From Somniosus microcephalus (taxonomy: Eukaryota): a DNA stretch of 64,000 nucleotides. Made by a program: the position numbers and the translations under genes. Positions 5,348-61,150 of the stretch are shown here, piece after piece (the first letter of the stretch is position 1; every line of letters starts with the position of its first letter). Location of the stretch: positions 94,426,001 through 94,490,000 of the forward strand of contig CM126203.1 in NCBI GenBank assembly GCA_052327205.1, read 5' to 3'. Below the pieces are notes generated by a model. It was given only the letters and a program-made list of their open reading frames with translations, did not search any database and had not been told where the DNA came from.

Positions 5348-5368
5348 ATTTATTAACTTTATGTCAGA

Positions 5369-12312: not shown

Positions 12313-12533
12313 ATTGATAGTAATGTTTTAAAATTGTTGAAATATTATATTATATTGTTTTAGTTGAGAGATACTTAATACTTATGTGCAATGTTACTAT
12401 TTGTTGTTGCTCACTTAGTATTGTGTCATGTTGAATAGTTTTATTTTGTCTGTGCATAGTTTTAGTTGTAAATAATTAATTATAAATTGTAAAGGTTATT
12501 TAGGTTGGAGTATATTTTAAAAGGAGGGGTGAA

Positions 12534-28684: not shown

Positions 28685-29140
28685 TGGAAGAGAGAGAGAG
28701 CGAGTTGGGGGGAAGAGAGAGAGTGAGTTGGGGGGAAGAGAGAGAGCGACTGGGGGGAAGAGAGAGAGCGACGGGGGGAAGAGAGAGAGCGACGGGGGGA
28801 AGAGAGAGAGCGACTGGGGGGAAGAGAGAGCGACTGGGGGGACGAGAGGAGAGAGCGACTGGGGGGAAGAGAGAGAGTGACTGGGGGGAGAGAAGAGAGC
28901 GAGAGACAGGGGAGTGAGCACGACTGGGGGTGGAGAGAGAGAGCGAATGGGGGGAAGAGAGCGAGAGACTGGGGGGAAGAGAGAGAGCGACTCGGGGGGA
29001 AGAGAGAGAGCGAGAGACTGGGGGGAAGAGAGAGAGCGAGAGACTGGGGGGGAAGAGAGAGAGTGAGAGACGAGGAGGCGAGAGACGGGGGAAGAGAGAG
29101 AGCGAGAGAGCCTGGACGTAGGGAAGAGAGAGAGAGTTCC
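28685..29140 (+). repeat. Purine-rich minisatellite (~20-bp GAGAGAGCGACTGGGGGGAA) next to the assembly gap
   Basis: About 20 imperfect copies visible. Confidence 0.9.
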
Positions 29141-29160
29141 TGAGGAATGAATGAAGCAGT

Positions 29161-29660
29161 NNNNNNNNNNNNNNNNNNNNNNNNNNNNNNNNNNNNNNNN
29201 NNNNNNNNNNNNNNNNNNNNNNNNNNNNNNNNNNNNNNNNNNNNNNNNNNNNNNNNNNNNNNNNNNNNNNNNNNNNNNNNNNNNNNNNNNNNNNNNNNNN
29301 NNNNNNNNNNNNNNNNNNNNNNNNNNNNNNNNNNNNNNNNNNNNNNNNNNNNNNNNNNNNNNNNNNNNNNNNNNNNNNNNNNNNNNNNNNNNNNNNNNNN
29401 NNNNNNNNNNNNNNNNNNNNNNNNNNNNNNNNNNNNNNNNNNNNNNNNNNNNNNNNNNNNNNNNNNNNNNNNNNNNNNNNNNNNNNNNNNNNNNNNNNNN
29501 NNNNNNNNNNNNNNNNNNNNNNNNNNNNNNNNNNNNNNNNNNNNNNNNNNNNNNNNNNNNNNNNNNNNNNNNNNNNNNNNNNNNNNNNNNNNNNNNNNNN
29601 NNNNNNNNNNNNNNNNNNNNNNNNNNNNNNNNNNNNNNNNNNNNNNNNNNNNNNNNNNNN
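29161..29660. other. Assembly gap, 500 N
   Basis: Run of n. Confidence 1.
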
Positions 29661-38005: not shown

Positions 38006-40059
38006 CAGGAAAGATTGAGCAGACTGGGGCTCTTTACTCCAGAAGAGGGAGGACTAAGAGGAGACGTGCATGTAACTTGTATTATTTACATATCTCAACA
38101 ACTTGTGTGATGACACGCTAAAGTGATATACGCATATATCTCAGGATCTATTTTACAGTACCAAGTTCTTTCAAGACAGTGATGACTTGTGGTGAGTTCA
38201 GCAGTTAGACCAAATTCAAAATCAATAAATCATACTGGGAGAAATCAACTTAGTCAATTTACATTATATTTTTATTCAGGCCTTTTAGGAAAATCCTGAT
38301 GGATCCAATGCATTTAAAACCACATTGATAATTTTGAGTATACTGACAAACATAGCAACATGTGAAATAGATGTGTAGAATAATTTTAAATATGTATTGA
38401 AGAAAAAAATATAGCTGAACATTGGAAAATTTAGAGTAAATTCAGTAAATTTCACCAGATTGAATTAAATTAATGGGAACATAATATCTGATGGGGTCTA
38501 ATGAATCAAAGGTTTGCCAAATAAATGGTTGCTGCTGGCATCCCTATTCTCTCACAGAAAACATTTTCACAGTAGTACAGCTTTGCTAACCTTTGCATTA
38601 GATCGGGAAAAACACTTTTTCTGAGTTTTAATGATACAAATAAAAACTGATTTTTAAAATGATTTTCTCTGAATTTCCCCAGTTATTTTGAGGTCCAATT
38701 TTTACTCCCTAATTTTCTCCTGGTTTTTGAATCTAAAAATAAAACCTGAAAACACTCAAAAACATGTTTTTAAATTGGCAATAAAAACTGACTAATGGTC
38801 CTTATTTGTAACAAATTAAATCATTTACAAAAATAATGAAGTGTTTAACTGATGAATTTTTCTTACAAATACATGGATTTTTTTTTATAACTTTAAATTC
38901 TGATTGAATCCAGTGCTGCCGACTTGGTTGTTCCTCTCCCTTATTTAGGTAGAAGGCAAACACAGTGAGAAAATGAGCCTAGTAAGCTTCTGCAGCCCTT
39001 CTGAAAACAAAACTGAGGACAAACAAACAAACCTATTTCTTATGTGATAGTTTGATTACCTCATCACAAAAATTACTGTGGAGAATGTGTTTTTTAATAC
39101 AGCAAAGTACTATCTTACTTTGAGTATTTTCTGTAAGATTGAATATGTCAAGTGCAATACAATACAAAACCACTTTGGAATGAAGAACCACGCTATCAAG
39201 CACAGTTAGCGATGTTTGTGAAATAGGCTCCATAGCCAATGCAAACTGACGGCCACATTTGTTGCATGCCCTTTGTTGTCCATTTCCTGACTCTTGCTGG
39301 TTGACATTTCTATAAAGATTCTTTTCTTCTGCTGTTAACACTTGAAACTGAATCAGTTATTGTTTATAGATATTCATAATATCAGTATCTCACTTTTGTG
39401 TAATTAATCTTGCATTAACTTTAATAATTGAACTGTACGGGCTGATAACATGGTGTTTTCCTGCCTTTCAAAGAGCACAGGAGTGCATGGTGGGTAACCC
39501 CTGCAACCTCTGGGGCAAAATAGTTTTGTAAAAGGATTATAATGTGCTACTACTTGTTAAGTCTGTGAATTATTTAGTTAATTAAAACAGACTAATGAGT
39601 AACAATAAAAACAGGTCTTTACTGGTTGGAGGTAGGGACTATACTGAATACAAGATTACTGCACAGTGCTTATATACCGGTGTGTTCACCCCCGGTATTA
39701 CGTCTACAGCAGCCTGAGAAAGTAGTACATCTCTTAAGGTGGAACAGGCTTAAGCTCTCTTAAGGTGGAACAGGTTACATACACAACACTCCTCCCTTCT
39801 TAGCTTTATAGTCATCCCCCCCATTTAACATAACGTAATAACATATATACATATATAACTTCATGTTTAACGTAACATATCACAGATTCAGTCTCTGCGG
39901 AAAACAGTTCACAGATTCAATCTCTGTGGTGTAGTCGGTTCACGTTACTCATTCAATAGTCCTTTCATGGATTTAACAGCTTGAACTTCCGAACTGATTT
40001 GGCTCCGTTCGGAGGGACCACGTGTGTGATCTGGTAGAGGTGATAATGGTTCAGATGGG

Positions 40060-42348
40060 TCATCTTCTGTTTTTACTTTTCCTTTTCTGCTTCTTGGAGA
40101 CTCTCTGGGCTCCATTGTCAGCTGCCACAGCTGCCAGCTGCATGCGCAGTTCCTCCTTCTCTTCCTCCTGTTTCCGTCGTAGAGCCAGCTTCTCCCGATG
40201 TTCCGTAGACTTTTGGTGCTCCTCCATGATTTCTGCACTTTGGGAGTCGAAGTTACAAGCTGGGCAGGACAGGACATCGTAATATTCGGTGTCGTCCACC
40301 AGGTCATGGTAATATTCGGTGTCGTCCTGAGCTAGACCAGTGAGAGGGTCGTCTATTTCCTCCATACCCAGCTGGACGTTAGCCAGCTCTTGTTCCAAAT
40401 CCAGACATCTTTCCTGAAGAGACTTCTTCATGTGTACCTCTGCATCCAGCTTTTTCTGGGCTTTCAGCAAGTCGTTTACTAGTGACCTCATTTGTGATTT
40501 TAATACTTCAACTTCCTTTGGAGATTGATCGATCGGACTATGCAATCCCTCTACCGGAGCAGCTGTTTCAGCGGTCTGTTGTTCTACATTGACGTGAGTC
40601 AGCGTACTTTTGGCATCCAATGGCTGCTCTGTTGCAGTCGTTTCAGTCTGTGTCGTCACATCAGCCATCTCAATGACTTTTGAGAGCTCCGAACCCTTTT
40701 CCTTTGAAGATCGCAGCTCGTGTTCAAGTTTTTCCCATTTCAGAGTCTTGTCCCTCAGCATATGGAGTTGGCTGACCGTTAACTCTTCTGACACCAGATT
40801 ATGGCACGCACCTTCAGAACCTGAATCAGCTTTGATTCGTTCGGCCTCCTCGCGCAGATGGTTGGTGTGCTCCTGCTCCATTTTCTCCATCAGTTGCTTC
40901 TGTTGACTTTCCAGATTCTCCCACTCTGTAACAAAGAACTTTTTTATTTCATTCATCTCTTGCTCAAAACGGCGAATCATTTGTTCTAATTGCTGTTGTA
41001 GTTTGAAATGGAGTTGAGTTCGAGCCCAGTGTCCCTCAAAAATGTGCATATCAGTAGACTTGACAGACTCAGAATTCTCTGTTAAACTATGTTGTTGTTG
41101 CTCAGTGGAATTCTGTGCTGAAACTTTGTCTTTTGCACATGGGTTGGTCTTACCATCATCAGTTCTAGAGTCTGGGCTGATTATCTGCACCGAGTTCTCA
41201 CTCTTTATGGCTTTTAGCGAATGCCAGTCCATATTTATGTTTCTAAACCACTCCCGGCCTAGTAGTGGTGGACCTCCCTCCGGTAGCACATATAAGTCCA
41301 TTATTTGACTTCCTTCGCCCTTGTTGGCCACTGCAACCTTTACTGTCCCGATGGGGTACACTCTCTGCCCCGTGTAGGTTGTCAATATAATCTCCGTATC
41401 CTGTAGGGGAATATGTTGGAATAACCTTCTGTAATCTTTCTTATTCATGACCGACAATGCCGATCCAGTGTCCAATTCCATTTTTACTTGGACTCCTTCT
41501 ATCTGAAGAGTAACCCAAATTGTCTGGAGGTCTGCACCCTTACCAACGTTGAGTACCCTTAAGCTAGCCAGTTCAATACTGCTTGCGTCTGAATCGGACT
41601 CCTGTTCGGCCACCTTGTGTACCTTTGCGTATTTCCCTTGCGGTGACTTCTTGTTGCTGGTCTTCTTCGCTGACCTGCATACTCTAGCTATATGTCCAAG
41701 CCTTCCACAAGTTCTACATTCTTGGTTTTTAAACCAACACTGGTTCTGATCATGCGTTGTCTTTCCACAACGATAACATTTGCCAGAACTCACACCCAAT
41801 TTGTGTGCACTGAGCTCCGGTGACCGTAGCTGCATTACTGCCGTGCCTCTCGCTGCGGCTTCGTGTGCTGCTGCCATAGTGACCACCTTCTCAAGCGTCA
41901 GCTCATTCTCCTCGAGCAGTCGCTTTTGTGTATCCTGTTTAAATAAACCACACACAAATTTGTCTCGAAGTGCCTCTGTCAGTCCCGTTCCAAACTGGCA
42001 ATATTTCGCTAATTTACGCAATTCCAGCAAATATTCAGCATTGCTTTCATGCTGTAGCTGCCTTCTGTCGTAAAATTTAAATCGTTCCGCTAGCATCAGC
42101 GGTGTGGGGTTTAGATGATCTTTCAGGACAGTAACAATCTCATCGAACGTCTTATCCGCCGGTTCATCTGGTGATAACAGGTGTTTCAATTGCCCGTATG
42201 TCTTCGCACCCATTAAATTTAATAATGTTAGAGCTTTATCTTGGTCACGAATTTTATTGGCCTTACAATAATTTTTTACTCTTTCAACATATATGGCCCA
42301 ATCTTCGAGGTCACTATCAAAGGTGCTAATATTCCCGTGTTTAGGCAT
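40060..42348 (-). CDS. 762-aa Gag-protease fused to STK10/SLK-like, optineurin-like and DNAJC21-like segments
   Basis: aa1-225 Gag with two CCHC, aa275-378 protease (ELDTGS, LLGREW), aa439-507 STK10/SLK-like coil, aa508-660 OPTN-like coil, aa~675-762 DNAJC21-like C2H2 finger and basic tail; no stops. Confidence 0.9.
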
Positions 42349-42755
42349 TGTAGATTTGCAATTTCTCAGATTTTATTTTCTTTACTTGTTATCAAAGATG
42401 GCGGCTTCCCGCTCTTGCCGTCGTCCTCCGCCCACAAAATGGCGGTTTTCCCGCACTTGGCGGTCTTCACCCGTCCCCCGACGCCGTCTCCCTTCAGCCC
42501 CCGAGTGCGGCCCTTATCAGCGGATGCGATCGATGGCCCAGCTGCGCCTCGCACTTGAAAGCGGCCCGGCCCTTATCTGCCGATCGCTATCGCCCTATAC
42601 CTCTCTCTTCCCCAGTCCTGTCTTCTACTCCGGTTCACAAGCTGATGGAGGCTTCAGGGTCCTAATGCCTGTCACTTCCAGTGGGGTGGTGAGTGGTGAG
42701 GTTTGAAACCTCTCTTCAACCGCCGTGGAATAACTGCCGCAGGGTAAGAACCTGA

Positions 42756-42765
42756 CTCGTCGCCA
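42756..42765 (-). promoter_or_regulatory. Primer-binding site of element B (tRNA-Ser(GCT) type)
   Basis: TGGCGACGAG one base after the 5' LTR; complementary to the ...CTCGTCGCCA tRNA end. Confidence 0.8.
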
Positions 42766-45700
42766 GTGTTAAGTCTGTGAATTATTTAGTTAATTAAAAC
42801 AGACTAATGAGTAACAATAAAAACAGGTCTTTACTGGTTGGAGGTAGGGACTATACTGAATACAAGATTACTGCACAGTGCTTATATACCGGTGTGTTCA
42901 CCCCCGGTATTACGTCTACAGCAGCCTGAGAAAGTAGTACATCTCTTAAGGTGGAACAGGCTTAAGCTCTCTTAAGGTGGAACAGGTTACATACACAACA
43001 CTACTTCTGTTCACAGCATACATATGGTGCAAGTTTCTGATCATGGAAGGCCTGAGTCTGCCTATGGAAACTGCATTTAGCTGTAAATATGATAGAGTTG
43101 GAGGAGAGCCTGAATTGTTAACATCCATTAATTAAAGGGAGTATGGTATCTGCCCCTCCAACCTCACATGCCACGACTCATTAGCCACATTTAAAGGAGT
43201 TCTGTCCTGGAACATAAACTACCTGTAATTCCCAGGAGAGAATGTGGAGCTAAAACCTCCATTCCAGTCCTTCTCCTTGAACAGCCAACATGCATAGACT
43301 CCAAAGAGATTAGAAGTGACCTGAAACTATCCCATAGATGTACTAACACCTTCAGTCTGGAGAGTCATTTGTTTCTCACTAAATTAATTGCTTTGATATT
43401 TTGCTTTGGACTTTGGAAGCTCATTTTATCTCCGTGAGTCGTAAAGAATCGTCCTTGAGATTGCAATTTCTAATGATGAATGGAAAGCTGTGGGTATCAG
43501 ATTTCTAGGTGACTGTTATCTTTTTGGGTCTTTTACTCTAGGATCACTCTCCTAGGTGAATTCCAACTTCCAGTGCCTTTGGGAATGCCTTCACAGCATT
43601 ATTATCCAGATAAAATGTTTGGTAATGTGCCCAGGGCAGTGAATAAAAACCGTGTCTCTCAGTTCTTCTTAAGCTACTAAAATTCTTTTCCTTCCACCAG
43701 ATCTATCTTCAGTCTATGATAAATAGAATATCATATCCCGACCTCAATTTAACTATAAATTATTATTAAATAAACAAGCAAATAAGTAACAATAATATAA
43801 CATACATATATAATATGTGGAAATGCTATGATCTATCCCCTTAATGGGGAAAATAGTAAAAGGTTGTGAATCTAAATACTAACCTGTATTTCTATAAACA
43901 ACTGTTCTGTACATAGCTCTCCTCTTTCTTGTCTTGTTACAAGCTTTGGGAGCTTAGTTTGTTCGATCTAAGTTTGTTCGATCAACTACACTGAGGACTG
44001 TTCTCCATTTGTTCCTTTTGTGTCTCCTGATCTATTGCCAAAGCTCATTAAAAATTAATAGCTGCCAACCTCATTCAAAAAGCAGCAAGCTACCAATTAT
44101 AACTGGATCAATCATGAAGTCTATATATTTGAAAATCATGTTAGATACCCTCTCAAGTCTTCTACAGGGAAACTATAAAAAAAATTGGAAACATATGTAA
44201 AGAAATAGGTTCAGATTGTAGGTAGCTTTTCAAAATCTGATGTATTGTACCTGATTTAAAAATACAGCTGCCAGACCAAAACAAGACAGTATTCCTTCAT
44301 ATTTGTCACAGTGGCACCTAGTAATCACTTGTGGGAGAGTGAACTTAAAATGTTATACTATATCTATCATCTTGCCAGGTCACCTACACCCAGAGATTGC
44401 TAATATTTTGGGGGGTAATTGTGAAGGGGTCTGCAATTTATTCCACGTCTTCTGGGATTCTCCCATGATTTGGGATATTTTAAGCAATGACCTTGTACAT
44501 ATTAGTGCCAATTCAGGTTTTTTTCAGTTATGATGGAGGAAATGCTGTTTCAAATGAGAAGATTGTAACTTTATATATTTTTTGATAGGATGTGGTCTGG
44601 CACTTGTATTTCTGCATCTGGTGCAAAGCGATCAGTATATAGTTGACATGATATCCTGCATTCATAGGTTTTTTTGGAGGGGGTGGTGGAAATATATATA
44701 ATCATCATGACCAAAGAATAGCTAGAGTATCCTAAGTGGATAGGTGTAAAAAAAGTTTCAGCTTGGTATTCTTACCACTGAACATTTTATTAGGTAGTGA
44801 TTTAAATGACAGTGAAGTTGTAATCACCTTAAATGATAGGGAGGTGGGTAAGACTACAGAAGGAGCCAAGCCCATGCAATATCAATGCAGGTGGCTTTGG
44901 AGGCACCTAGAGATTTTACAGGAGCAGAGGCTTCAGCAACCTAGAAAGACTAGTGGGCAGTTGTTCACAGGCAGAGGACCTGTTGTTGTAACTCTGAGCA
45001 CAGTGTAGGTGTGCAGGATAGCAGCAGGCCACCTGCACAGTGTTACTCATTACGCTGCTGCATATTGTGCACTGAGCAGGTCTGGCAAAGATTCAGCACA
45101 CTGACCTTACACAAGGGATGATGCAATGGCAAGTGGGGGGCTTTGACCTTGTAGCACTGTCCAATCTGTCATAGTCATTTGTCCAGAGAAGATGTTGACA
45201 TCTAATCAGAGAGGACGCATGATTAACAGTTCAATGCTACATCTCATCCAAGACATGGTAACCTTATGTAACTTGCCTACTTGAGAGAAGGGTACGGAGT
45301 CATGTAATTAACACATTAGCTGAGATTAACAGTCCGAGCTTATTGGAAGGCACAGTTGCTCAGTTAGGCAGTGATGAAGTCCGTGCAAAACTTTCAGTAC
45401 TAACACCAGACAAAGCTGGCTATGTGAGGTAATTTGTCTGTGATGGCAGCTGGGCAACAACCAGCCTCCTTACCACACAGTACACAAGACTGACAATTAG
45501 GGGAAGGATAAAATTTGTTACAAAGAAGAAAACAGAGTAGGAGTTAAGGGCAGTTTTGCAGACATGTTGGAAGTGAGTAGCAGTGTCCCACACAATTCAT
45601 GTCTGGAGCCACTTTAGAAAGCTGTGAACAAATCAGGACCTACCTGCAGTGTGAACAAAATGAGACCCTCTTAACACTGAAGAAATAGGTAGGTTTAATG

Positions 45701-46135
45701 CTCCAGAAATCACTAGCATAACTATAGTTGGAAAAAGCAGGCTCTCCTCAAAGTATTAAAATTGGCACTTGTGGTGAGATTGAAGTCTGTGGTTTATGTA
45801 TTTAAAAAAAAAGGATCTTCTCATTGTGCAGAAAGTAACGATGTTCCTATTGAACCAAAATTCAGGCCCACCTACTGCTGCAACAAATAATGGCTGTTTA
45901 ATTTTGTAAAGAACGCAGCCCTCCTTCTGATGAGAAAAATTAGGACCTGTTTACTTTCAAAAAATTGGGACCTTCTCTATTGTCAAAGAAGTTATGCAGT
46001 TTGGAAATCACACTGAACCACTTTCACAACTCCCCTCCTGAGAATTTATAACCTGCCAACTAGACACTCTGCCAACTCCCCCCTTGAAATAAGATACTTT
46101 GCTCATCCACCCCATTGATGCACTTTCAAAACCCT

Positions 46136-46880
46136 TAAGACAATCTCCCATCTCTCCACCTCTCGGGCACTCTACCACCTAATCCCCATTGAGGCACTTT
46201 CACAATCCCCTGAGACAATCTCCCATCTCTCCACCTCTCGGGCACTCTACCACCTAATCCCCATTGAGGCACTTTCACAATCCCCTGAGCCAATCTCCCA
46301 TCTCTCCACCTCTCGGGCACTCTACCACCTAATCCCCATTGAGGCACTTTCACAATCCCCTGAGACAATCTCCCATCTCTCCACCTCTCGGGCACTCTAC
46401 CACCTAATCCCCATTGAGGCATTTTCACAATCCCCTGAGACAATCTCCCATCTCTCCACCTCTCGGGCACTCTACCACCTAGTCCCCATTGAGGCATTTT
46501 CACAATCCCCTGAGACAATCTCCCATCTCTCCACCTCTCGGGCACTCTACCACCTACTCCCCATTGAGGTACTTTCACAATCCCCTGAGCCAATCTCCTA
46601 TCTCTCCACCTCTCGGGCACTCTACCACCTAGTCCCCATTGAGGCATTTTCACAATCCCCTGAGCCAATCTCCCATCTCTCCACCTCTCGGGCACTCTAC
46701 CACCTAATCCCCATTGAGGCACTTTCACAATCCCCTGAGACAATCTCCCATCTCTCCACCTCTCGGGCACTCTACCACCTAGTCTCCATTGAGGCATTTT
46801 CACAATCCCCTGAGACAATCTCCCATCTCTCCACCTCTCGGGCACTCTACCACCCAGTCGCCATTGAGGCACTTTGTCAA
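46136..46880 (+). repeat. 75-bp minisatellite, ~10 copies
   Basis: CAATCTCCCATCTCTCCACC recurs at 46141, 46216 ... 46816. Confidence 0.95.
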
Positions 46881-48578
46881 TCCCACACCACACTCCAGCA
46901 TTTCTTCCCAGCCCCGGAGACACTTTTACTTTCTTAGATACTTTACCCCCACCACCACTACTGAGCCACTTTACCCCTCACTATCGTAGTCTGGCACCCC
47001 AACACAGAGCCAGTTTACTCCCCACCGTCATTAAACATCCTGCCTAACCAACCCCACCGGCCACCTTGAAGACTTGCCAACCTCCCCACTGAGGTACTGT
47101 ACCAACCCTACCGCACTTTGTCAACTCCTCCACTGAGGCAGTATTGTAGCCTCCACCCGCCCCCCCCCCCGCCCCCACCAACCAAAGACACTTTTCCAGC
47201 TGCCCCCCTCCCCCCACTGAAGCACTATTCCAACTCCATCTGCTGGGGTACTTTTTGCTCTCTCTCACCCCTCTTCCCCACTAAGGTATTGATCCCCCCA
47301 TTGAGATATTTTTCCAACCTCTCCCCCACTGAGATACCTCTCTAAATTCTTCCCCTTTCCCCTCCACTCTCTGTCTCTCTCCTTCCTCCTCCGCTCTTGC
47401 CATCTCTCCTCTCCCTCTCCCTTCCTTCCTCCACTTCGGTCCAGTTATTCCCCTGCCCTGTAACCCTGCTTGATCTGAAGATAGCACTTAGACTTGACTA
47501 TCCATGTGCTACGTTAGGGAAATTGACTAGATATCTTTAATGTGGAATTAAGAGTTTTGGGGAGGAAAGAACAGCTACCTGTACCATAAGTAAGCCTTGT
47601 AAGATAATAGATAAACAATATTACAAAAATTTTACCTGTGAGGTCTTTAACAAACGTTAATACTTTTACTTTCTGGAAATCATGATATATTGCTTCAGTA
47701 GATTTGCTGCATTACAACATTGACATGTTATCATGCTTATTCTGTAAAAGGACCATGATAAACATCAGAAATTGCATTCTCAATCCCTGACTAGCCATGA
47801 GCAATGCCATGGGGATAATCTGGTGTGTGTATATATAGGTTTTTCCATATGTACATTTCAAAATCTGAGCTTTCATCTGGCCTTTCTGCATCTCTCAAAT
47901 ATACTAGAGAAGACCATAGCTTAATTCCAAAAATACAAAAAATAAATATTTCAAATCTCAAAAAAATGAAGGCAGCAAATCAAAAAAGAAAAAATCACAG
48001 ATATAATAGCTGAAAAATCCCTATCACTTAAATAAAATTAAAAAACTCCTGGAAAATTATTAAAAATACACAACCAATCTTCAGAGTAATTATAAAAACT
48101 AGGTGTAAGAAAAAAACTGCAAAATTAATGAAAAGAGGTACAATGAATCCAATATATAAATTTAAATTTCCTTATTTGCTGAAACAAATTAATTATGGAG
48201 ACGCAAGGGCTTGATGATCATGTTCTGACTGGTCAAGCTTATACCAATCCATATATTCTCCTAATCGTCTCAATCTTTGTGGTAACCTGAATTATAAGTC
48301 TGGAAGGCAAGCAATTTGAGATGTTTTTTCTATGTTAAAGGTATTATATGTTGTTGAAGTTTGGTTGAAGTTTCTCAGTATAATGAAAAAAATCACCTTT
48401 TCACATCCAGGTACAAAAGCAATTTAAAACAGTTGCATCCTTTCATACTGGTTTCATCTTCACACTTCATACCAGTAATGGCGTCAATTTAGATGCTGCA
48501 TGGTGATAATGTTAACATTCCATTTCTCCTTGTATAGACAAAACTATGAAAAGATGAGTACTCAGTTTGTGGCTTAGT

Positions 48579-50214: not shown

Positions 50215-50320
50215 ACCGGCAACAAGGTTGCGATGCAGATTTTATGGGGAACGAGGGGAGGACAGTTCCAACGTCACCGGTAGTGTCTAGGGACGACCCA
50301 GTTGAGAGAGAGGAGACCTC

Positions 50321-51378
50321 ATGACCACCACCCGTAGCGCCAAGTTTCAGCGAGGTTTTGGCAGCAAGTGGGGGGTGGAACCCGGGGTGGAGCCAGAGGT
50401 GGAGGCGGAGGTAGAGCAACCCCCACCAGAGAAGTCGGAGCCGGGACCGATGTGCCCAGCACGGCATCGGAGGTTCGGTCCACCCGCCAATGGCGACATT
50501 GAGGGACCCCTCCAAAACCAGTTCGTATTACCCTTTAACACCCAACAGCTTAGGGCTATGGTCAGCCATCTCCCAAGGCTCTCCGAAAAGGGAGACCCCT
50601 CGATCCACTTCAGGGAAGTAGAGCAAACCGCCAGCGTCAACGACTGCGATGACGCTGAGAAGGCCAAAATGCTGCTATTCTCCCTGGAGAGTAGTCTCCT
50701 CCAATCCCTCTCTGACGAGTGCAAAAGGGGGCAGTGCGGGTATGAGGAGCTTAGAGATGCGGTTCTGGAGGCCATGGGGATGGATGAGGGAAGTCCTTTC
50801 TCCCGTGTGGGGAAGACGATCCAGCTCTCGGGAAACCCCGCAGGCTTTTGCGGACCGGGTGTGGCTGGTGTACCGGAGGGCCTGTCTGGGGACGCCAGAC
50901 TGGGCGTTCCTAAACGGGGATTCCCTGACGCATTGGCTCCGTTGCCTGGTGGCAAACAGCTTGCCACAGGTCCGGGCCAAGGCAGAAGCCTGGTTCGATC
51001 CCAAAAATCCCCAGACCACCGAACTTACGGTAATTAGGCAGCTCACTCTGGCTTACAAAAACGGTAGGGGAGCCGATGCACACCCACCCAAGGGACAGGT
51101 GCATGAGGTAAAACCCGGACCGGGTAGGAAAGATTGGCACCAGGAAGGGAGTAACCCCCCCAACACCAAGACCAATTGTTATGGGTGTGGGAAGGATGGT
51201 CACTGGCGGAAGGAATGCAAAAACCCTTGGAAAGATAACAAGGGAAAGCATCCCACAGGCCCAGCCCAAAAGGCGGGGGCAGGGACCCCTTCCGCAGAGG
51301 TCGAGTCACTTTTGGACGCCATGAGGTCCTTGCTGACTGGCCAGGGGAGAGTAGCAGCTGCCACCGGTGCTCTCACCC
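50321..51378 (+). pseudogene. Element D gag (frameshift near 50830; last codons at 56914-56942)
   Basis: ORFs 50321-51037 and 50649-51413; ETPQAFADRV, CYGCGKDGHWRKEC. Confidence 0.8.
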
Positions 51379-51648
51379 TGATGTGCCTCAATGAATCCGA
51401 GACTCAACGTTAACGGAGCAAAGCAAGGCTTTTATTAACTCGGAAAGTAATACACATTGGAGAAGTGTCTCTCATCCAGAGATCTGCTGTACTGGATGTG
51501 AGACACGCTGGGCCTGCTTAAGTAGGGGCCAGGTATGGGCGGAGCCCTACACACAATACAATACAGGTAAGGAAATGAAACTGAAACTAAACTAAACACA
51601 GAGAATACAGTGCCTGATGAATGGCATATTTCATCACATTCGCCCCTT

Positions 51649-52139
51649 CTACAGATTTAGTCTGTTCGGGGGTTTGGTAGTCCTCTGTGACCGACGTAGC
51701 GGTTGTGGTGCTGCGGGTGTCGGCTGGGTGTCCCCGGTGGCCTCCTGGGTCTCTGCCGGGGGCGCCGCCAGGGTTGTTGAAGGGGTAGTTGGTGGGGGCA
51801 CCGTTGGTCGGTGTTCTTCCGGGGGTGATGAAAGAGTAGTGGGTGGGTAAGAGTTGCTGTGATCGTTGTTGCTGTTGTTGTCGTGGTTGTTGTCGTTACC
51901 GGCTGGGGCGACGTCTTTTATGGACACGGTGTCCTCCCTTCCGTCGACGTGCCGGACATACGCGTATTGGGGGTTGGCGTGGAGTAGGTGCACTGACTCC
52001 ACGAGAGGGTCCGTCTTGTGGCCCCTCACATGCCTTCGTACAAATACCGGACCTGGGGTGGAGAGCCATGACGGCATGGATACGCCTGAGGTGGATTTCC
52101 AGGGAAAGACAAACATTCGTTCATGAGGCGTGGCATTAG
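51649..52139 (-). pseudogene. Element C integrase C-terminus
   Basis: TNATPHERMF...DPLVESVHLLHANPQYA...LRRSQRTTKPPNRLNL*; homologous to element A. Confidence 0.88.
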
Positions 52140-53353
52140 TGTCAGGGTTGGGGAGCCACGGGGCCGTATAAATACGAGGCCGTGCTCTCCGGGTGAGGTA
52201 GGTTCTGGACCCAAGTGCAGAAACCAAACAGGAGGCAAATATACAGTACTTTGTTTGAACTTTACTAGATTCACACATAACTAGATTAACACAGCAATAT
52301 ACATAAGAACTAGAGACAAGAGAACTCGAGACAGAAACATAAGCATACATAAGAACTAGAGACAAGTTACAAGACAGCTAGTCAAGATAGGAACTCAGGA
52401 CAGCTTCCATGAGGAAGCCCACTTGTCTATACTGAGCTTGCGACAAGCTACCACAAGGGGCAATCGGCTTGCCGAGGCAAAACTCCAGACAAGCTACCCC
52501 AAGGGTAATCGGCTTATCAATGCAAAGCTCAAGACAAGATCCCAACGGCTCCCACATAGCAACACGCTTGTCCAAACAGCACCTTACCAAGACAAGCAAC
52601 TAAACAGAACAACAGACTTAAATACATCTTATATCCAGAGACAAGAACACAGACTTAGATACATAGCTCGAGAGAACTAGAACACAGACTTAGATACATA
52701 GCTCGAGAGAACTATGGCAGCCAGCTTGTGAAGGCAAGCTGCCATAGAGCAAAGGCTAGTCACACAGAGCACCTAGTCAAGACAGAGGACATTGTCAAGA
52801 CTAACTCCCTGGTCCACCCTAGTGAGGACTGAGCAAAGAATGAAGCAACAACAGAACTTATATACCAAGAAACCAGGTGAAACCCATGAACAGCTAACAG
52901 GCCGTTAAGAATTAACACAGGGCTAGGAACAATTAACAAAGGCACAAACAAGTGAAGGTGCCAGCGGGCAGGTTGGAGGACCTCCTCGTGGGTCTGCTCC
53001 TGGGCCTGGCCAAGAAAGCCATTAATTGGTCCAGGCAGCGGGCGGTCGAGGGGGTCGTCCGACCGGATTGCCTCCCTCTCTTCCGTGGCCATGTTCGCGC
53101 CCGGGTGGCCCTAGAGATGGAGCACGCGGTGTCCGCCGGCGTGCTCGAGCAATTTCGTGACCGGTGGGCGCCGCGGGGACTGGAGTGCATAATTAGTTTA
53201 AATGAGCAAATTTTAATTTGATTTGTTAAGGTTTATTTAAAGGTTTATTAGAGTTTCGTTTACAGTTTATTTGTTTAACTCATTTGTCTCGCAAAAGAAG
53301 CAAGTGAAGGTGCCATCTAGAGGTTAGGAAAAGGACTGACTGGCACCGTCACA
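52140..53353. mobile_element. Solo LTR inserted in element C integrase
   Basis: TGTCA...TCACA termini, TSD ATTAG (52135-52139, 53354-53358); removal restores LCTATN-ATPHER. Confidence 0.85.
52964..53300 (+). mobile_element. 5'-truncated Tx1/L1-clade LINE 3' end inside the solo LTR
   Basis: 15-bp TSD CAAGTGAAGGTGCCA (52949-52963, 53301-53315); DLLVGLLLGLAKKAI...LFRGHVRARVALE...FRDRWA resembles Tx1 ORF2 C-terminus; T-rich 3' UTR. Confidence 0.82.
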
Positions 53354-56300
53354 ATTAGTGGCAGTACACAATAGCGACCGTATCGAATGGAGCACATCTG
53401 GGAGGACTTCCTGCCAGCGGGAGATAGGGAGGCCCTTGGTCCTTAGAGCTAGAGTGACTGCTTTCCATACTGTCCCGTTCTCTCGCTCCACTTGACCGTT
53501 ACCCCGGGGGTTGTAGCTGGTGGTACGGCTTGTGGCGATCCCCCTGGACAGCATGTACTGGCGTAGCTCTTCACTCATGAAGGACGCCCCCCTATCCGTA
53601 TGGATGTAGCTCGGCATACCGAACAGGCAGAACAGGCTGTTGAGGCATTTAATGACCGTGGCGCTGGTCATGTCTCGGCAGGGGAAGGCGAATGGGAAAC
53701 GGAAGTATTCGTCCACAATGTTCAGGAAGTAAACATTGCGGTCGACTGACGGGAGGGGGCCCTTGAAATCTAAGCTGAGCCGCTCAAAGGGCCGTGTAGC
53801 TTTGATTAAGTGGGCTCTATCTGGGCGGTAGAACCGAGGCACTCAGCGCAAGTGCGGCAGTTCCTGGTCAGAGACCGAACTTCCTCAATCGAGTAGGGTA
53901 AGTTGCGGGACTTTATGAAGTGGAACAGCCGTGTGACCCCGGGGTGGCAGAGGTCGTTGTGGAGGGTCTGTAGCCGATCCCCGGTGGTGCTGGCACACAT
54001 CCCTCGTGAGAGGGCATCGGGGGATTCGTTAAGGGCCCCTGGCCGGTAAATGATGTCATAATTGAAGGTGGAGAGCTTGATCCGCCACCTAAGAATCTTA
54101 TCATTTTTAATCTTCCCCCTCTGTTTATTATTGAACATAAACGCTACCGACCACTGGTCGGTAAGTAGGGTGAAGCGTTTGCCGGCTAGGTAGTGCCGCC
54201 AGTGGCGCACTGCCTCCACGATGGCTTGGGCCTCCTTTTCCACGGAGGAGTGTCTGATCTCGGGCCCTTGGAGGGTCCTCAAGAAGAAAGCTACGGGCCG
54301 CCCCGCCTGGTTGAGGGTGGCCACCAAGGCAAAGTCAGCCGCATCACTTTCCACTTGAAAGGGAGTGTTCTCGTCCACTGCCTGTAGCGTGGCCCGCTCA
54401 ATATCCCGCTTAATGCTTTTGAAGGCGGCATGGGCCTCAGCAGAGAACGGAAAAGAGGATGCTTTCAAGAGGGGGCGGGCTTTGTCGGAGTAGTTGGGGA
54501 CCCATTGGGCATAATAAGAAAATAACCCCAGGCACCTTTTCAGGGCTTTGGGAGTGTTGGGCAGGGGCGGCTCCCGTAGGGGGCGCAATCGGTCGGGGTC
54601 TGGTCCAATTTCCCCATTCTCCACCACGCTGCCTAGTATGCAGAGGCGCGTGGTGTTGAAAACGCACTTGTCCTCGTTGTAAGTGAGGTTGAGTTTTTGT
54701 GCGGTTTTCAGGAACCTCTCGAGGTTCGAGTCGTGATCCTGCTGGTTGTGACCGCAGATGGTGACGTTGTCGAGGTAGGGGAAGGTTGCCTGCAAGTGGT
54801 GGTCATCGACCATGCGGTCCATCTCCCTCTGGAAGACCGAGACCCCATTCGTCACCCCAAAGGGGACTCTGAGGAATTGGTAGAGGCGTCCGTTCGCCTT
54901 GAAGGCGGTGTACGGGCGGTCCTCTGGTCTGATAGGGAGCTGGTGGTACGCTGACTTGAGGTCGATGGTGGCGAACACCCGGTATTGGGCGATTTGGTTC
55001 ACCATCTCGGATATGCGGGGTAGCGGGTAGGCGTCTAGCTGGGTGTATAGATTAACTGTCTGGCTATAATCTATCACCATCCGCTTCTTCTCGCTACCCC
55101 TCACCACCACCACTTGGGCGTGCCACGGGCTGTTGCTGCGTTTGATAATGCGCTCCTTCAGGAGCCTGTCTACCTCGGTCGCGATAAACCGCCTGTCCTC
55201 CCAGCTGTACCTCCTGCTTTTGGTCGCTATTGGCCGGCAGTTGGGAGTAAGGTTCGCGAGTAGCGAAGGCGGCTTTACCTTCAGGGTAGCCAGACCGCAC
55301 ACTGTGAGGGGCGGCTGGGACCCACCGTACTTGAGCGTGATGCTTTGGTGGTGGCACTGGAAATCCAGGCCCAAGATCACGCTCGCACATAGATTCTTCA
55401 TGATTAGTAATTTAAAATTATCGTATACAGTTCCGTTAACGGACAATTGTACCGCGCAGTAACCCATAACGGTCGATGTCTGGGTTTTATCAGCCATAGA
55501 GATGGTGCCCCGAGCAGGGACCACCGTTACAGAGAGTTGTTGTGCCAGTTCCAGGTGGATAAAACTCTCCGTGCTTCCACTGTCAAATAAACATTTAACC
55601 CCGCACCCATTTACCTCGATGTCCACCATTGATTTGGATAGCGGGTGCGGTCTGGTCTGGTCCACTGTGACCGATGCCACTGTAGGGCCCTGATCGAGAC
55701 AAGATGGCGTCCACGCTGTCTGCTCACAAGATGGTGGACCCCACGAGGTCGGGCAAGATGGCGTCCAAGATGGCCGCTCCCACGGCGCACACGCGGCGGT
55801 GGCGGGTTTTCCAGCGGGGTTCCCTCTGCACACCTTCCCGAAGTGCCCCTTCTTACCGCACTTAAAGCAGGTGGTGCCTTTCGCCGGGCACAGGTTTCTG
55901 GTGTGCTTCGGCTGCCCGCAGAAGTAGCAGTTGGGGCCCCGACGCGTCGCGGCTGTCGTAGGGCTTCTGGGGGGAGAGCGGGGCCCCGATGGTGTCGGGC
56001 TGCCGGGCGGGGAAGATGCCTTCCAAGATGGCAGCGCCCTTGGTGCACACGTGGCGGCGTGGGCGGCGCGGGCTGAAGAGTAGGCGTCCGAGTTTCTCTG
56101 GGCCACATCCAGGGATCGCGCTGTGTCCACAGCCTGTTTCAGGTCCAATCCCGTTTTTTCCAGTAATCTCTGCCGGATGTAAGTGGAGCTGAGGCCTGTG
56201 ATAAAGGCATCACGAACAAGCTCGTCAGTGTACACTGCGGCTTTTACATCTTGGCACTTGCAGTCTTTGCCAAGCGTTTTCAGGGTGACTAGGAACTCAT

Positions 56301-56622
56301 CCAGCGATTCCCCAGGTCGCTGTGCGTGACTAGCGAGCAGATGCCTAGCGTACACCTCGTTCATAGGCTGCTGGTAATGCGCCTTTAGGATGTCGCAGGC
56401 GGCCGAGTACGTGTCGGCGTCTTGGATGAGGGGGTAAACCCGGTGGCTTACCCAATTCCGCAGGATTCCGAGTTTCATACTTTCAGCGTCCGTAGCGCCT
56501 GTGATGGCTGCGGAATTGTCCAGGAAGAATTCCATACACTTAAACCAGTGTCCGAATCGTGCCGATGCATCCGAAGCATGCGGGTCCAAATCCAAACGTT
56601 TGGGTTTCAAGAGTTGGTCCAT
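53354..56622 (-). pseudogene. Element C gag-pol (frameshift near 53840)
   Basis: ATG 56622 MDQLLKPKRL; two CCHC, LFDSGS, YLDN, RNase H, HHCC, integrase core in ORF 53324-53842. Confidence 0.92.
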
Positions 56623-56942
56623 TGCATTGAAAATTGAGTTAATAAAATTGATGTGCCTCAATGAATCCGAGACTCAACGTTAACGGAGCAAAGCAAGGCT
56701 TTTATTTACTCGGAAAGTAATACACATTGGAGAAGTGTCTCTCATCCAGAGATCTGCTGTACTGGATGTGAGACACGCTGGGCCTGCTTAAGTAGGGGCC
56801 AGGTATGGGCGGAGCCCTACACACAATACAATACAGGTAAGGAAATGAAACTGAAACTAAACTAAACACAGAGAATACAGTGCCTGATGAATGGCATATT
56901 TCATCACACACCCCATCCGTCCCATCCAACCCACAGCCGTGA

Positions 56943-59900
56943 CTAGAGCCAGCGCAGCCTGTTTATCTGTGTTCTCTCCGATACGATGAGTGGAAAAGAC
57001 CCCTTTTGGAGATGGAGGTGGAGAAGGAGAAGGTGACGAGGACCTATCTGTTAGACACGGGGGCATCATGCACCATGGTCTACTCAGCTAACCCCACCAC
57101 CTCACCTCTCTCCAACGGGGTCCCATACAGTCTATCGGGGTTCACGGGTAGGGAACAGGCTGGCTCGTTTTCCATCCCGCTCACCATTCGGTTAGGACCG
57201 CTCCGCTCCAAGTGGACCTGTGTCCTGATGAAATGGGACGTGGAGGGTGGAAGAGTGGTCCTGGGGGCCGACTTTATTGTAGGCCATGGGATCCTAGTGG
57301 ATTTGAGGAATCACTGCCTTTGGGGGGCAGGTAAAGTAAAGAACGGAGAGGTCGTAGTAATCCCGGGAAAGGAAGGGAAGGGGACACTCTGCACCATGAA
57401 GCCCAAAGAGGATTATAACCTCGGGCTCATGGTCAGCAACACCCCACCAGAATTCCAGGCATTTGTGCAGGCCCACCTGGCCACATTTGCCACTCACAAG
57501 CACGACTGCGGGAGGGTCACAGGGTTTGAGGTCAGCATAGACGGGAACCCTGTGGCCCGACCACAGAAACAATATAACTTCCCCAGGGAAGCAGAGCCGG
57601 ACATGGAAGCAGCCATGTCCTCGTTAGTGCAGCAGGGAGTTCTGAGACCGATAGCTACCCACGTGAATTCTCCATTATGGCCGGTCAGAAAGCCGGACAA
57701 TTCCTGGAGGGCCACGGTGGATTATCGAGTGCTCAATAGTAACATCACAGCCTGCGCACCCACAGTAACAGCAGTTGCCGACCTCATCGGGAGTATTCCA
57801 GCATCCGCGACCACTTTCACGGTGCTGGATATTTCAAATGGGTTTTGGTCCATCCCTGTAAGGAGGGAGGATCAGTACACGTTTGCCTTTACGTTTAAGG
57901 AGCAACAGTACACATGGAACTGTTTGCCTCAGGGCTTCCACAACAGCCCCAGCATTTTCCATCAGTGCATGGCCAACAGTTTGAAGGATTTTAGCCAGCC
58001 CAGACAGTTGGTTCAATATGTGGATGACCTGCTCCTGTTCACTGATTTGAAAGAGGAGCATGGTCCGCTATTGGCCGAACTGCTGGAGCTGTTAGGGCAG
58101 AAGAGTTTCAAAGTAAACCCCAAGAAAGCGCAGATCGGCCAGCAGGAGGTGAAATTCCTCAGTCTGACCGTGTGCACTGGAGAAAGGGCCATAGATAAGG
58201 CTAGGAAGGAGGCGGTACAAGAACTACCGGTCCCTAACACAGTAACGGGTGTGAGGTCGTTTCTAGGGCTAACCGGGTACTGCAGAGACATTATTGAGGA
58301 CTATGCAGCCACCGCAGCCCCTCTGCTCCGACTCCTACACAAGGGAGTGGAGTGGCTTTGGGATGAGGGTTGCCAGGCAGCATTTGTCAGGCTCAAGAAA
58401 GACTTGCAGACCGCGCCAGCTTTAGGGGCCATAGATGGGGGGAAAGAGTTTTTCCTGGAGGTAGCAGCCAGCGGGGACAGCCTGAGTGCTGTGCTGCTCC
58501 AAGAGCGGCACGGCCGGCTGCGGCTGGTGGTCTACTCCTCTGGGATACTCACAGATGTGGAAAGGAGCTATTCCAATTGTGAGCGGCATCTTTTGGCCAC
58601 ACATTGGGCTGTGAAAAGATCATTGATCTTCACAGGCACCTCTCCCATCACCCTCCTCACCCATCACACACCTACCCAGATGCTTCTGGACGGGAGGATC
58701 AAGGATGGGACAGTGAGCAGTGCCCGCATTGCCCGCTGGACTTTGCTCCTCTCACAGATGGATCTAAAGGTGAAGGGTCTCTGTGAGCCAAGGCTTGCAG
58801 CCAACATGGTATATCCTGGAACAGCCCACTGTTCCATTGAAGGGGTTTGGGAAGTAAACACAGGTTTACGGGCCGGGATACATCCCACAGGCTGCGAAAT
58901 CTATGTAGACGGTTCCAGCACGGTATCTGCTGGCGAGCATCTCACGGGGTGTGGGGTTTACGACCCAGCGCAAACATTGCCTTGGCGATTAAGCTCCCCA
59001 GCACCATGAGCGCCCAGCAGGCTGAACTGTCTGCGGTGGTGTACGTTGTTACACACCCCGAAATCTTCCCCACCCCCTATGCGATTTGCTCGGACAGCAT
59101 GTTCACGTGCAATTCATGTACGGAGTACCTGGCCATCTGGTCCCGCCGCGGATACACCTCCGCTAACGGGAGACCCCTCACAGTAAAACCCCTGCTGGAA
59201 AAGATCCTGGCAGCAGTGGGGGAGGAAGGGGAGGTTTTCATCCACAAGGTGAAGGCCCATTCCTCCACAGAACCCCGCGGCCAAGGCAACCAGCAGGCTG
59301 ACTTGCTCGCCAAGGAGGGTGCCCGCACAGGCACTTTCTGGGACCCATTTGGGTCCAGACCCATGGCGGCGGTCAGAGGTAGGGACGGGACCCAAGGGAG
59401 TGTAGGGGTAGCATTAGCCCCGGACCTAAAGACGGTCCAAGCCGAAGACCCTGTCCTAAAAGCAGTCCTCAGCGCTGTAGCTGCGGGAAATGGAGTAGAA
59501 GGTCCGTATGGCACAGCGACCCTCTCCGTTAAAGAGGGCATGCTGTTCCGGGGGGAACAGTGGGTTGTGCCGCAGCAGCACCGGAGGGAATTCCTTCAAC
59601 TGGCCAATGAGGGTCCAGGAGCGGGACACCCCAGGCCTGAGACCACCTGGCAACAGGTGGAACAGGCGGGATGGTGGCCGGGACTCAGGGACGATGTCCA
59701 TGAATTCTGTGCAGGCTGTCTTGTGTGCGCTGCGAACAACCCCGACCCCCACAAAAGGAAAGTCCCTATGGGACACGTCAGGAGGGTAGAGGAACCATGG
59801 CAGTCGATACAAGTCGACTACATTGGGCCCCTGCCCACCGCCCAGGGAGGCTATAAGTACTGCCTAGTCCTGGTGGACGTGTTTACCAAGTGGGTAGAGG

Positions 59901-61150
59901 CCTTTCCCTGCAGAACAGCCACAGCTCTGGGTACTGCCAGGAACCTGGTCCGGGAAGTGTTCTCGAGGTGGGGAGTACCACAGTATGTGGAGTCCGACCA
60001 AGGGAGTCACTTCACCGGACAGGTGATGCAGAACACCCTGATGCTGCTAGGCATTGAAGGGAAATGGCACATGGCCCACAACCCCCAGTCATTGTGGATT
60101 GTAGAACGCATGAATCGGACCCTGAAAGAAAGCTTAAGAAAGGAAACGGTGGACTCGCCCCGTAAATGGGCCGAGGTCCTACTGTTGGTTTTGATGGGGA
60201 TCCGGGCCAGCTAGTCTAAAAGCATGGGGTATTCCCCGTACGAGCTAATAACTAGCAGGGTTATGCGGACCCCTACCCATGTACTAGCCCCGGTGCTCAC
60301 GGAGGGTCAACTCAGGGAGGTAAACCAGGACAGACAGGTTTGCCCGAAACCTCTTTGAGCACCTGAAGCAGGTCCATGAGCAGGCGGCTGGAAACATGGA
60401 AGGCAGCATCGGAGTAACCGATTGCTGCTCGAACCCAGAAAGCACCATGAGTGGGAGGTAGGAGATCAGGTCATGGTAAGAAACTATGCCCGAGTAGGGA
60501 GTTTGGAGCCATTGTACATGGGGCCCTACAGCATTGTAGATAAAGCCAGCCCCATGGTATACGCCGTGAAGATGCCCCGGTGTACAAAATGGTTTCATAT
60601 CAACCAGTGTAAGCTGTTTACACCTGAAAGGGGAAAACAGCCAGTTGGGAAAAGGGCTGAGGATAAAGATCCTCAGCCTGCAGCAGGAGCGAGTTCACAG
60701 ACTGCACAGGCAGGCGCTGTGGCTTGCTTAAAGGGAGGGGCCATCCCGTCCATTGATTGGGACACTCCCCCACTCTTCTGGGATCCAGACGAGGGGAAGG
60801 GACCTGAGGGCGAAAACCCCGCCCCTAACCCAGGTGTAGAGAGGGAGGGACCTGAGGTCGAAAACCCCGCCTCGGACCCAGCCATGGGACCTGGGGGCGG
60901 AGGCTCTCAGCTCGCAGCAGCAGGCTGCGAAAAGTTACCTGCCCCCAGCCCAGGTTTGGGAGGGGTCAAGCCTGAGGGAGCAGCGGTTCGGGTTAAAGGC
61001 CCAGCGGCCAAGAAAGCCCCACCCGTCAAGGCCCCCAGAAGGTCCCCACGGACGCCCCAGCCGAGAAAGCCATGGTCACCTGCCCTCCAGTTATCAAGGG
61101 CCGCCCTTGAGCTAGGGAAGGGCCCAAGGACAGAGGTCCTCAGCCAGTAG
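56943..61150 (+). pseudogene. Element D pol: PR-RT-RH1-RH2-IN with frameshifts/stops
   Basis: LLDTGA, NSPLWPVRKPD, LDISNGF, LPQGF, YVDD, CERHLLA (degenerate RH), IYVDGSS/SAQQAEL/SDS/KVKAH/GNQQAD, IQVDYIGP, SDQGSHF, GPY. Confidence 0.92.

What the first reader, a model, noticed from the sequence alone, without database searches (positions are those of the whole stretch)
40060..40368. Captured block 3: DNAJC21-like C2H2 zinc finger and basic tail, with an in-frame 30-bp duplication
[49 protein letters not shown]...[10 protein letters not shown] resembles recalled DNAJC21 ([48 protein letters not shown]...QKLSKKQKKK). All four zinc ligands are kept (CxxC, HxxSxxH) while neighbours drift, and the DDTEYY duplication (~40279 and ~40309) preserves frame, hinting at constraint. 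It could supply RNA binding and an NLS.
Basis: partly seen in the sequence, partly recalled or inferred. Interest (0 to 1): 0.75.

Follow-up and report, generated by a model that had tools for sequence, protein, structure and literature searches.

The report
Retrotransposon carrying stolen host zinc finger
A very abundant shark retrotransposon has replaced its own copying enzymes with an in-frame string of pieces copied from host messenger RNAs, ending in this DNAJC21 zinc finger, and it keeps the reading frame and the zinc-binding residues while the rest of the finger drifts.

Summary
Confirmed, and larger than reported. The stretch ends a 770-codon frame in a 3,446-bp non-autonomous Ty3/Gypsy element (identical 234-bp LTRs, 5-bp TSD): gag, protease, then STK10, optineurin and DNAJC21 pieces in place of RT-RNaseH-integrase. 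The optineurin piece spans five host exon pieces without introns. A motif from it occurs 10,174 times in the genome. DNAJC21 origin is settled by a sister lineage whose finger plus flanks matches shark DNAJC21 at 31 of 38 residues. All four ligands are kept in 49 of 49 copies that have the finger, while 17 of 19 other positions vary (p 0.002 to 0.06 depending on the null). No stop is shared where about 15 were expected. The 30-bp duplication is dispensable: 984 copies have one unit. RNA binding is doubtful: finger charge is +4 to +6 in hosts and -4 here. A basic C-terminus was present in all 9 frames checked. The family is transcribed. Mechanism (inferred): a zinc-folded, basic end-module serving the element. 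LTR capture of mRNA is known; this scale and in-frame constraint were not found in 10 searches.

The parts
42767..43000 (-). 5' LTR, 234 bp, TG...CA, identical to the 3' LTR
43001..43005 (-). target-site duplication AGTAG, 5' copy (3' copy at 39550-39554)
42757..42766 (-). primer-binding-site-like TGGCGACGAG directly after the 5' LTR (role inferred from position)
41653..42348 (-). gag with two CCHC zinc knuckles; first ATG at 42348; frame open from 42372
   Evidence: zf-CCHC E 0.003; dN/dS 0.09 against lineage B
41242..41514 (-). aspartic protease (LDTGSA motif)
   Evidence: gag-asp_proteas E 6.9e-5
40835..41202 (-). captured block 1: internally deleted pieces of STK10, including part of the PKK coiled coil
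   Evidence: 74% over 77 aa to sawshark STK10
40355..40834 (-). captured block 2: optineurin, five host exon pieces joined without introns, with one internal skip
40063..40354 (-). captured block 3: DNAJC21 acidic linker, first zinc finger, helix and basic tail (the finding)
40270..40329 (-). two 30-bp DxxEYY units with a perfect 18-nt core; old, and lost in frame in many copies
40198..40266 (-). C2H2 finger CxxC-x12-H-x5-H; ligands invariant across lineages, surface acidic in this lineage
40063..40107 (-). basic C-terminal tail in the host frame; stop at 40062-40060
39924..40064 (-). remnant of the integrase C-terminal tail of the parent element; untranslated here, translated in lineage D
39789..39801 (-). 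polypurine tract
39555..39788 (-). 3' LTR, 234 bp

Best explanation
Block 3 is a piece of DNAJC21 mRNA captured by template switching into a Ty3/Gypsy element and fused in frame as the last module of a Gag-protease-tail polyprotein. Shown: the element lacks RT, RNase H and the integrase core, so it must borrow them from a helper (helper not identified). Shown: the tail is a mosaic of host pieces, the family has about ten thousand copies, lineages swap the finger module, and selection has kept the frame open. Supported: selection has also kept the four zinc ligands and a basic C-terminus. Inferred: the tail is translated, and the constraint acts for the element, not the host. The finger serves as a small zinc-folded cap on a long helical tail, and the basic end takes over from the basic C-terminal tail of the lost integrase (nuclear targeting or non-specific nucleic-acid contact in mixed particles). 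It no longer works as DNAJC21's basic finger in the window's lineage.
For: Anatomy. Spliced-mRNA capture shown for optineurin. Copy counts 10,174, 2,342 and 984, controls 0. Ligands: 49 of 49 fingers; no shared amino-acid change at 4 ligand codons against 31 at the other 19 (P 0.0013; Fisher 0.0017). Frame: 362 shared substitutions with no shared stop, 13.7-18.3 expected; lineage B has a compensated frameshift inside the optineurin piece. Gag and protease dN/dS 0.09 between A and B, so the protein is made and needed. Basic end in 9 of 9 frames; D loses the host basic tail by a frame change but reads into an integrase-tail-like basic motif. Module swaps between backbones. RNA: 18,895 of 16.65 million records of run X20 laid on the element, depth 467-610 on one strand against 19-39 on the other over block 3.
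Against: Outside the ligands the tail looks close to neutral: N:S 2.31 (optineurin) and 2.48 (DNAJC21 block) against 2.18-3.39 expected under neutrality. The ligand test weakens under other nulls: 58 of 144 optineurin columns are invariant (0.4^4 = 0.026) and 3 of 6 non-ligand Cys/His columns are invariant (about 0.06); there are only about four deep finger lineages. The core Phe, invariant in kind among hosts, is Ser in A, B and C. No translation, zinc-binding or localisation data. The host DNAJC21 finger exon was not found, so intron loss is not shown for this block.
Confidence: 0.55

Rival explanations
1. Passive filler. Only the open frame matters (for RNA stability or to avoid nonsense-mediated decay); the captured residues, ligands included, are drifting, and the ligands have survived by chance.
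For: Near-neutral N:S in the tail; the duplication is dispensable; ligand p is only about 0.03-0.06 under background nulls; tail content differs greatly between lineages (770 against 1139 codons).
Against: 17 of 19 neighbours changed and 0 of 4 ligands; pairwise NG86 dN/dS for the optineurin piece is 0.33-0.49 and 0.48 against host exons; a basic end is reached by two different routes.
Confidence: 0.25
2. Arms-race module. The fold is kept while the surface is driven to change, to escape or engage a host factor, and recombination spreads favoured fingers between backbones.
For: Non-ligand N:S 4.63 against about 2.5 neutral; charge runs from +6 to -4; A against C and A against D dN/dS above 1 in this block (2.67 and 1.13); finger swaps in L165, L180 and L205.
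Against: Only 6.75 synonymous changes, so the excess is not significant; no partner is known; recombination is expected anyway among co-packaged RNAs.
Confidence: 0.12
3. Anti-silencing at the RNA level. The host pieces shield the element or turn small RNAs against host genes, as with TART captures and maize gene capture.
For: Precedent: PMC13534243 (passages read) and 10.1101/777037 (listing only). Optineurin pieces are still 77-92% identical to host exons.
Against: Captures are sense and in frame; the constraint falls on codons, not on nucleotide identity; the finger region is only 81% identical between A and the host-like D, a level at which PMC13534243 found almost no targeting; none of the three genes is a piRNA-pathway gene (own knowledge).
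Confidence: 0.06
4. A host retrogene or domesticated gene that gives extra DNAJC21 or optineurin function.
For: Transcribed; a shark genome preprint lists single-exon OPTN copies near LINEs or LTRs as retrogenes.
Against: Identical LTRs, a TSD and thousands of near-identical dispersed copies; no J domain or zuotin-homology domain; fused behind gag and protease.
Confidence: 0.02

Closest known systems
LTR-mediated retrocopies in animals (Tan et al. 2016, PMC5131818; passages read)
   Same: Partial, intronless mRNA pieces inside an LTR element, several parental genes in one locus, short shared sequence at switch points, further rounds of mobilisation as non-autonomous elements.
   Different: The passages describe a few young loci per species. 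Here one family has about ten thousand copies, intact gag and protease under purifying selection, and a 380- to 750-residue in-frame mosaic tail kept open across lineages about 28% apart.
Crocodilian ERV captures of KIT-ligand and nectin3 (PMC4299795; passages read)
   Same: Host mRNA captured by a vertebrate LTR element, with purifying selection on the captured frame.
   Different: Near-whole single genes in nine and six copies of retroviral lineages, beside pol or replacing env. Here fragments of three or more genes replace most of pol in a Gypsy element.
Acutely transforming retroviruses with gag-onc fusions (recalled, no call)
   Same: Helper-dependent genome in which host mRNA pieces are fused in frame to gag at the cost of pol.
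   Different: Those are somatic, short-lived and selected through the oncogene; this is a germline, env-less Gypsy family with non-catalytic cargo.
Bdelloid LTR retrotransposon extra ORFs, including coiled-coil types (PMC5408684; passages read)
   Same: LTR elements acquiring extra protein modules.
   Different: Separate third ORFs in autonomous elements, not an in-frame replacement of pol by recognisable host exons.
DNAJC21/Jjj1 first zinc finger (PMC6710477; passages read)
   Same: Sequence origin, ligand spacing and the following helix.
   Different: No J domain; basic surface and core Phe lost in lineages A, B and C; attached to Gag.
TART telomeric elements capturing nxf2, piwi or aub (PMC13534243; passages read)
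   Same: Host fragments retained by a selfish element, with higher copy number.
   Different: Non-LTR, 140-235-bp pieces acting through piRNAs; here the signal is at the protein level.

Membership tests
DNAJC21-derived zinc finger (origin) | CxxC-x12-H-x5-H followed by the [8 protein letters not shown]-type helix | tested here: met
   window type 20 of 38, lineage D 31 of 38 identical to white shark DNAJC21
DNAJC21-derived zinc finger (origin) | best extended database match is DNAJC21 | tested here: met
   1 of 4 hits spans residues 21-100 and is DNAJC21; the three better E-values are multi-finger proteins
DNAJC21-derived zinc finger (origin) | intron loss relative to this genome's DNAJC21 gene | tested here: inconclusive
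   two upstream host exons found; the finger exon was not found in C1:2.37-2.67 Mb, which has three 500-base gaps
JAZ-type dsRNA-binding finger (PF12171) | score at or above the gathering cut-off | tested here: not met
   16.2 against 22.6 bits for the window; met by lineage D, 34.4 bits
JAZ-type dsRNA-binding finger (PF12171) | basic helix surface for RNA | tested here: not met
   net charge -4 against +4 to +6 in 119 of 119 orthologue fingers; binding itself not testable
DNAJC21 protein family (functional member) | N-terminal J domain and zuotin-homology domain | tested here: not met
   absent from the 770-aa frame, present in P0010
Non-autonomous Ty3/Gypsy LTR retrotransposon | TG..CA LTRs, TSD, PBS, PPT | tested here: met
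   LTR pairs also found in 20 of 20 fuller copies, 97-100% alike
Non-autonomous Ty3/Gypsy LTR retrotransposon | Gypsy-type gag and protease, no RT, RNase H or integrase core | tested here: met
   gag-protease 44% identical to neighbours with PR-RT-RH-IN order
Non-autonomous Ty3/Gypsy LTR retrotransposon | an autonomous helper sharing LTR ends | not tested
   only distant pol-bearing relatives seen (L050, L126/L127)
LTR-mediated retrocopy (Tan et al. 2016) | intronless partial mRNA flanked on both sides by element sequence | tested here: met
   optineurin exons; protease upstream and integrase-tail remnant downstream
LTR-mediated retrocopy (Tan et al. 2016) | microsimilarity at switch points | tested here: inconclusive
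   7-nt overlap at the internal optineurin skip; the optineurin-DNAJC21 joint cannot be tested without the host exon
TART-type anti-silencing capture | antisense piRNAs that target the parent gene | not testable with these tools
   no small-RNA data; long-RNA reads are mainly on one strand in X20

The most novel reading that the evidence does not exclude
A vertebrate Gypsy family has evolved a new functional protein for itself by serial exon theft: a Gag-protease fused to a long helical tail of host pieces and capped by a re-surfaced zinc finger and a basic end. The tail gives the helper-dependent element its advantage, lineages trade and diversify the finger in a conflict with host or helper, and the family accounts for thousands of apparent OPTN, STK10 and DNAJC21 'gene duplicates' in large shark genomes.
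Probability: 0.35. Interest if true: 0.85.

Novelty: new variant of a known kind. Interest (0 to 1): 0.66.

Why it matters
It shows domain shuffling by an LTR element at very large scale in a vertebrate, with several coexisting lineages that record successive captures, deletions and swaps. That makes the question 'do captured host fragments work for the element as protein?' testable with isolated peptides and public data. It is also a warning for shark genomics: single-exon OPTN, STK10 or DNAJC21 copies near LTRs can be transposon cargo, not retrogenes. One preprint (10.1101/2024.09.09.611499, section 7 read) counts single-exon OPTN copies among gene duplications; whether those are elements of this kind was not tested, and its supplements could not be read.

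Tried and rejected
A DNA search of the own genome with block 3 returned 0 matches; this is the tool skipping very common words, since searches find thousands. PDB sequence searches: 0 hits for the window tail, 1 irrelevant hit at E 0.12 for lineage B's middle. Foldseek on the model: no match at E 0.001, only weak C2H2 and U1-type fingers. The model itself (pLDDT 88-94 over residues 31-80) rests on an alignment in which 12 of 14 rows are DNAJC21, so it is not independent evidence of folding. ESM Atlas gave only generic coiled-coil look-alikes for lineage B's extra pieces; EVI5-like and RAI14/UACA-like labels for them are recalled, not tested. The host DNAJC21 finger exon was not found. YN00 failed in 7 of 23 comparisons and the A-B dS values above 1.2 are near saturation. 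The script stopped with an error after printing the host comparison; the simulation was redone. No RNA holder was listed in the index; raw-read runs were laid instead. Runs X14 and X11 gave 1 and 14 pieces and are not used as evidence. Earlier scan findings: none. Ten literature searches listed no description of this family. Rejected: that the single-unit form is the older one; all 8 distinct single-unit rows lie inside the A+C clade, while B and D rows all have two units (27 distinct rows from 48 copies; midpoint root; label test weak).

Full report
OBSERVATION. The quoted peptide is the last 102 residues of a 770-codon minus-strand frame at 40060-42372. The finger lies at 40266-40198 and the two 30-bp units at 40329-40270. 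The first 14 bases of the finding belong to the preceding optineurin piece.

CONTEXT. The frame sits in a 3,446-bp element: identical 234-bp LTRs (43000-42767 and 39788-39555), TG..CA ends, TSD AGTAG, a PBS-like site and a polypurine tract. Pfam finds a CCHC knuckle, an aspartic protease and a PKK coiled coil, and no RT, RNase H or integrase. After the protease come STK10 pieces (9 of 9 hits are cartilaginous-fish STK10 or unnamed; 74% over 77 residues), optineurin (4 of 4 hits are shark optineurin; 69% over 157 residues) and block 3. The best hits being sharks is the basis for calling the host a shark. The host optineurin gene was located; element bases 2167-2646 run through five host exon pieces at 77-92% identity with no intron, so capture was from spliced mRNA. 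Behind block 3 lies sequence that lineage D translates into an end resembling the integrase C-terminus of pol-bearing relatives. The host pieces therefore replaced RT, RNase H and the integrase core.

IDENTITY OF BLOCK 3. Of 1.84 billion representatives, 4 passed E 0.001; the only one matching in a single long stretch is DNAJC21. The window's finger is weak on its own (Pfam jaz 16.2 bits, cut-off 22.6; 55% over 42 residues to white shark DNAJC21). Lineage D, joined to optineurin at the same point, matches that protein at 31 of 38 residues (E 9e-21) and passes the Pfam cut-off. The host's own finger exon was not found, so intron loss for this block is inferred from the optineurin case.

FAMILY. 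A protein search scored 150 of 17,443 candidates and all 150 were identical to the query. Exact motif counts: 2,342 for a block 3 motif of the window's lineage, 984 for its single-unit form, and 10,174 for an optineurin motif shared by lineages, with reversed controls 0. These are lower bounds. The first 30 of the 10,174 by position gave 6 two-unit A, 6 single-unit A, 8 C, 6 B-type, 3 D and 1 interrupted before the finger. I added 20 more positions, skipping three already known to be A-type, so the 50-copy tally under-counts A. LTR pairs of 20 fuller copies are 97-100% alike: several lineages were active recently. Backbones and fingers are mixed: L205 has a C-type backbone with an A-type block, L165 the reverse, L180 a B-type finger on a C-type backbone. 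Near-identical sequence is held by runs labelled as three organisms (50-77% of words) and small shares by four more; one of these may be the genome's own species.

CONSTRAINT. Ligands: 49 of 49 copies with a finger keep all four (48, plus L227 read). Among 48 copies with an open frame, codon states shared by two or more copies need 31 amino-acid changes at the 19 other positions and none at the ligands (P 0.0013); 17 of 19 against 0 of 4 columns vary (Fisher 0.0017). Against the optineurin background (58 of 144 invariant) the chance is 0.026, and against non-ligand Cys/His columns (3 of 6 invariant) about 0.06. The support is real but moderate, and some changes may be multi-base events. Frame: 362 shared substitutions in the optineurin and DNAJC21 blocks include no stop; 13.7-18.3 were expected. 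The copies were not selected for an open frame: 48 of 50 have one through the finger. Shared indels are in frame or compensated, apart from D's shift at the basic tail. Otherwise the tail is loosely constrained: N:S 2.31 and 2.48 against 2.18-3.39 neutral, pairwise dN/dS 0.33-0.49 for optineurin and 0.56-2.67 for block 3, against 0.09 for gag and protease.

THE DUPLICATION. Two units occur in D, B-type and some A copies; single units occur only inside the A+C clade, through a 30-base and a 33-base deletion. The single A unit has the start of unit 1 and the end of unit 2, as slippage across the 18-nt core would give. The repeat is old and dispensable. Whether it came from the host is open.

RNA BINDING AND NLS. 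Finger net charge is +4 to +6 in 119 of 119 orthologue fingers, +6 in D, 0 to -1 in B-type, -3 in C and -4 in A; the host core Phe is Ser in A, B and C. RNA binding by the window's finger is therefore unlikely. All 9 frames examined end with 8-12 Lys/Arg in 25 residues. A C-terminal nuclear targeting signal on Ty1 integrase is a precedent (PMC2490736, abstract start in listing only), and donor-helper mobilisation of deleted Ty1 elements is described in PMC4974528 (passages).

EXPRESSION. In run X20, 18,895 of 16,654,260 records lay on the element at 90% or more (4,953 at 99% or more), in 30 of 30 bins, with about ten-fold more first mates on the + strand, which in most stranded libraries means sense RNA. 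X21 gave 17,462 of 14,396,404 with a weaker bias. These runs are from organism B, whose relation to G000 is not established, and reads cannot be assigned to this copy. Translation is not shown.

MECHANISM. Shown: capture, in-frame fusion, amplification, swapping, transcription, an open frame. Supported: constraint on ligands and on a basic end. Inferred: the polyprotein enters particles with a helper's enzymes, and its zinc-folded, basic end-module replaces a function of the lost integrase tail. Rivals: frame-only filler (0.25), surface arms race (0.12), RNA-level anti-silencing (0.06), host retrogene (0.02).

COMPARISON AND NOVELTY. It works like the LTR-mediated retrocopies of PMC5131818 and the crocodilian captures of PMC4299795 (passages read) and is a member of that general kind. 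It is not a functional DNAJC21 and, in this lineage, fails the JAZ-finger tests. Ten full-text searches listed no account of this family; subscription journals and repeat libraries were not searched. A shark genome preprint mentions single-exon OPTN copies near LINEs or LTRs, with no main-text mention of DNAJC21 or STK10; its supplements were closed. Verdict: new variant of a known kind, interest 0.66.

Noticed in passing
G000:C7:131988500-131995000 (L192:2039-5455) and other lineage B copies: Lineage B has a 1139-codon frame with about 400 extra residues of further host-like pieces between STK10 and optineurin; they recall EVI5-family and RAI14/UACA coiled coils (recalled, not confirmed).
   Followed up: partly
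L178 (G000:C1:9294899-9297915): A recombinant copy in which an A-type finger is followed by the start of a second, B-type acidic module.
   Followed up: no
L173, L181, L182 (G000:C1, 7.63 and 10.17 Mb): Lineage D keeps a near-host finger and a longer optineurin piece, reads the basic-tail DNA in another frame and runs on into an integrase-tail-like end.
   Followed up: yes
A against B: Synonymous divergence falls from gag and protease (1.7-2.1) through STK10 (1.25) to optineurin and DNAJC21 (0.43, 0.37), suggesting that the optineurin-DNAJC21 cassette spread between older backbones by recombination.
   Followed up: partly
G000:C1:2370001-2670000: Two DNAJC21 exons lie at 2.653 and 2.668 Mb, but no later exon was found in 280 kb downstream; three 500-base gaps lie there.
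   Followed up: partly
L050:5945-9926 and L126/L127: Pol-bearing Gypsy relatives, 44% identical in gag-protease; their C-terminal motif matches the remnant behind block 3. One lies in a DNAJC21 intron.
   Followed up: partly
window 5119-12762: Gypsy element with identical 229-bp terminal repeats, split by a LINE-like element on the opposite strand (about 6975-10250).
   Followed up: no
window 51379-56908 and 50306-61150: Gypsy element with identical 260-bp terminal repeats, apparently nested in another GC-rich gag/pol element whose frames lie on both sides.
   Followed up: no
window 46110-46884: Tandem array, 75-bp unit, 10.3 copies, 95% matches, open in a frame on each strand.
   Followed up: no
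window 61875-62879: Integrase frame of another Gypsy-type element, running off the window's right end.
   Followed up: no
window about 28690-29660: AG-rich degenerate tandem repeat beside an assembly gap.
   Followed up: no
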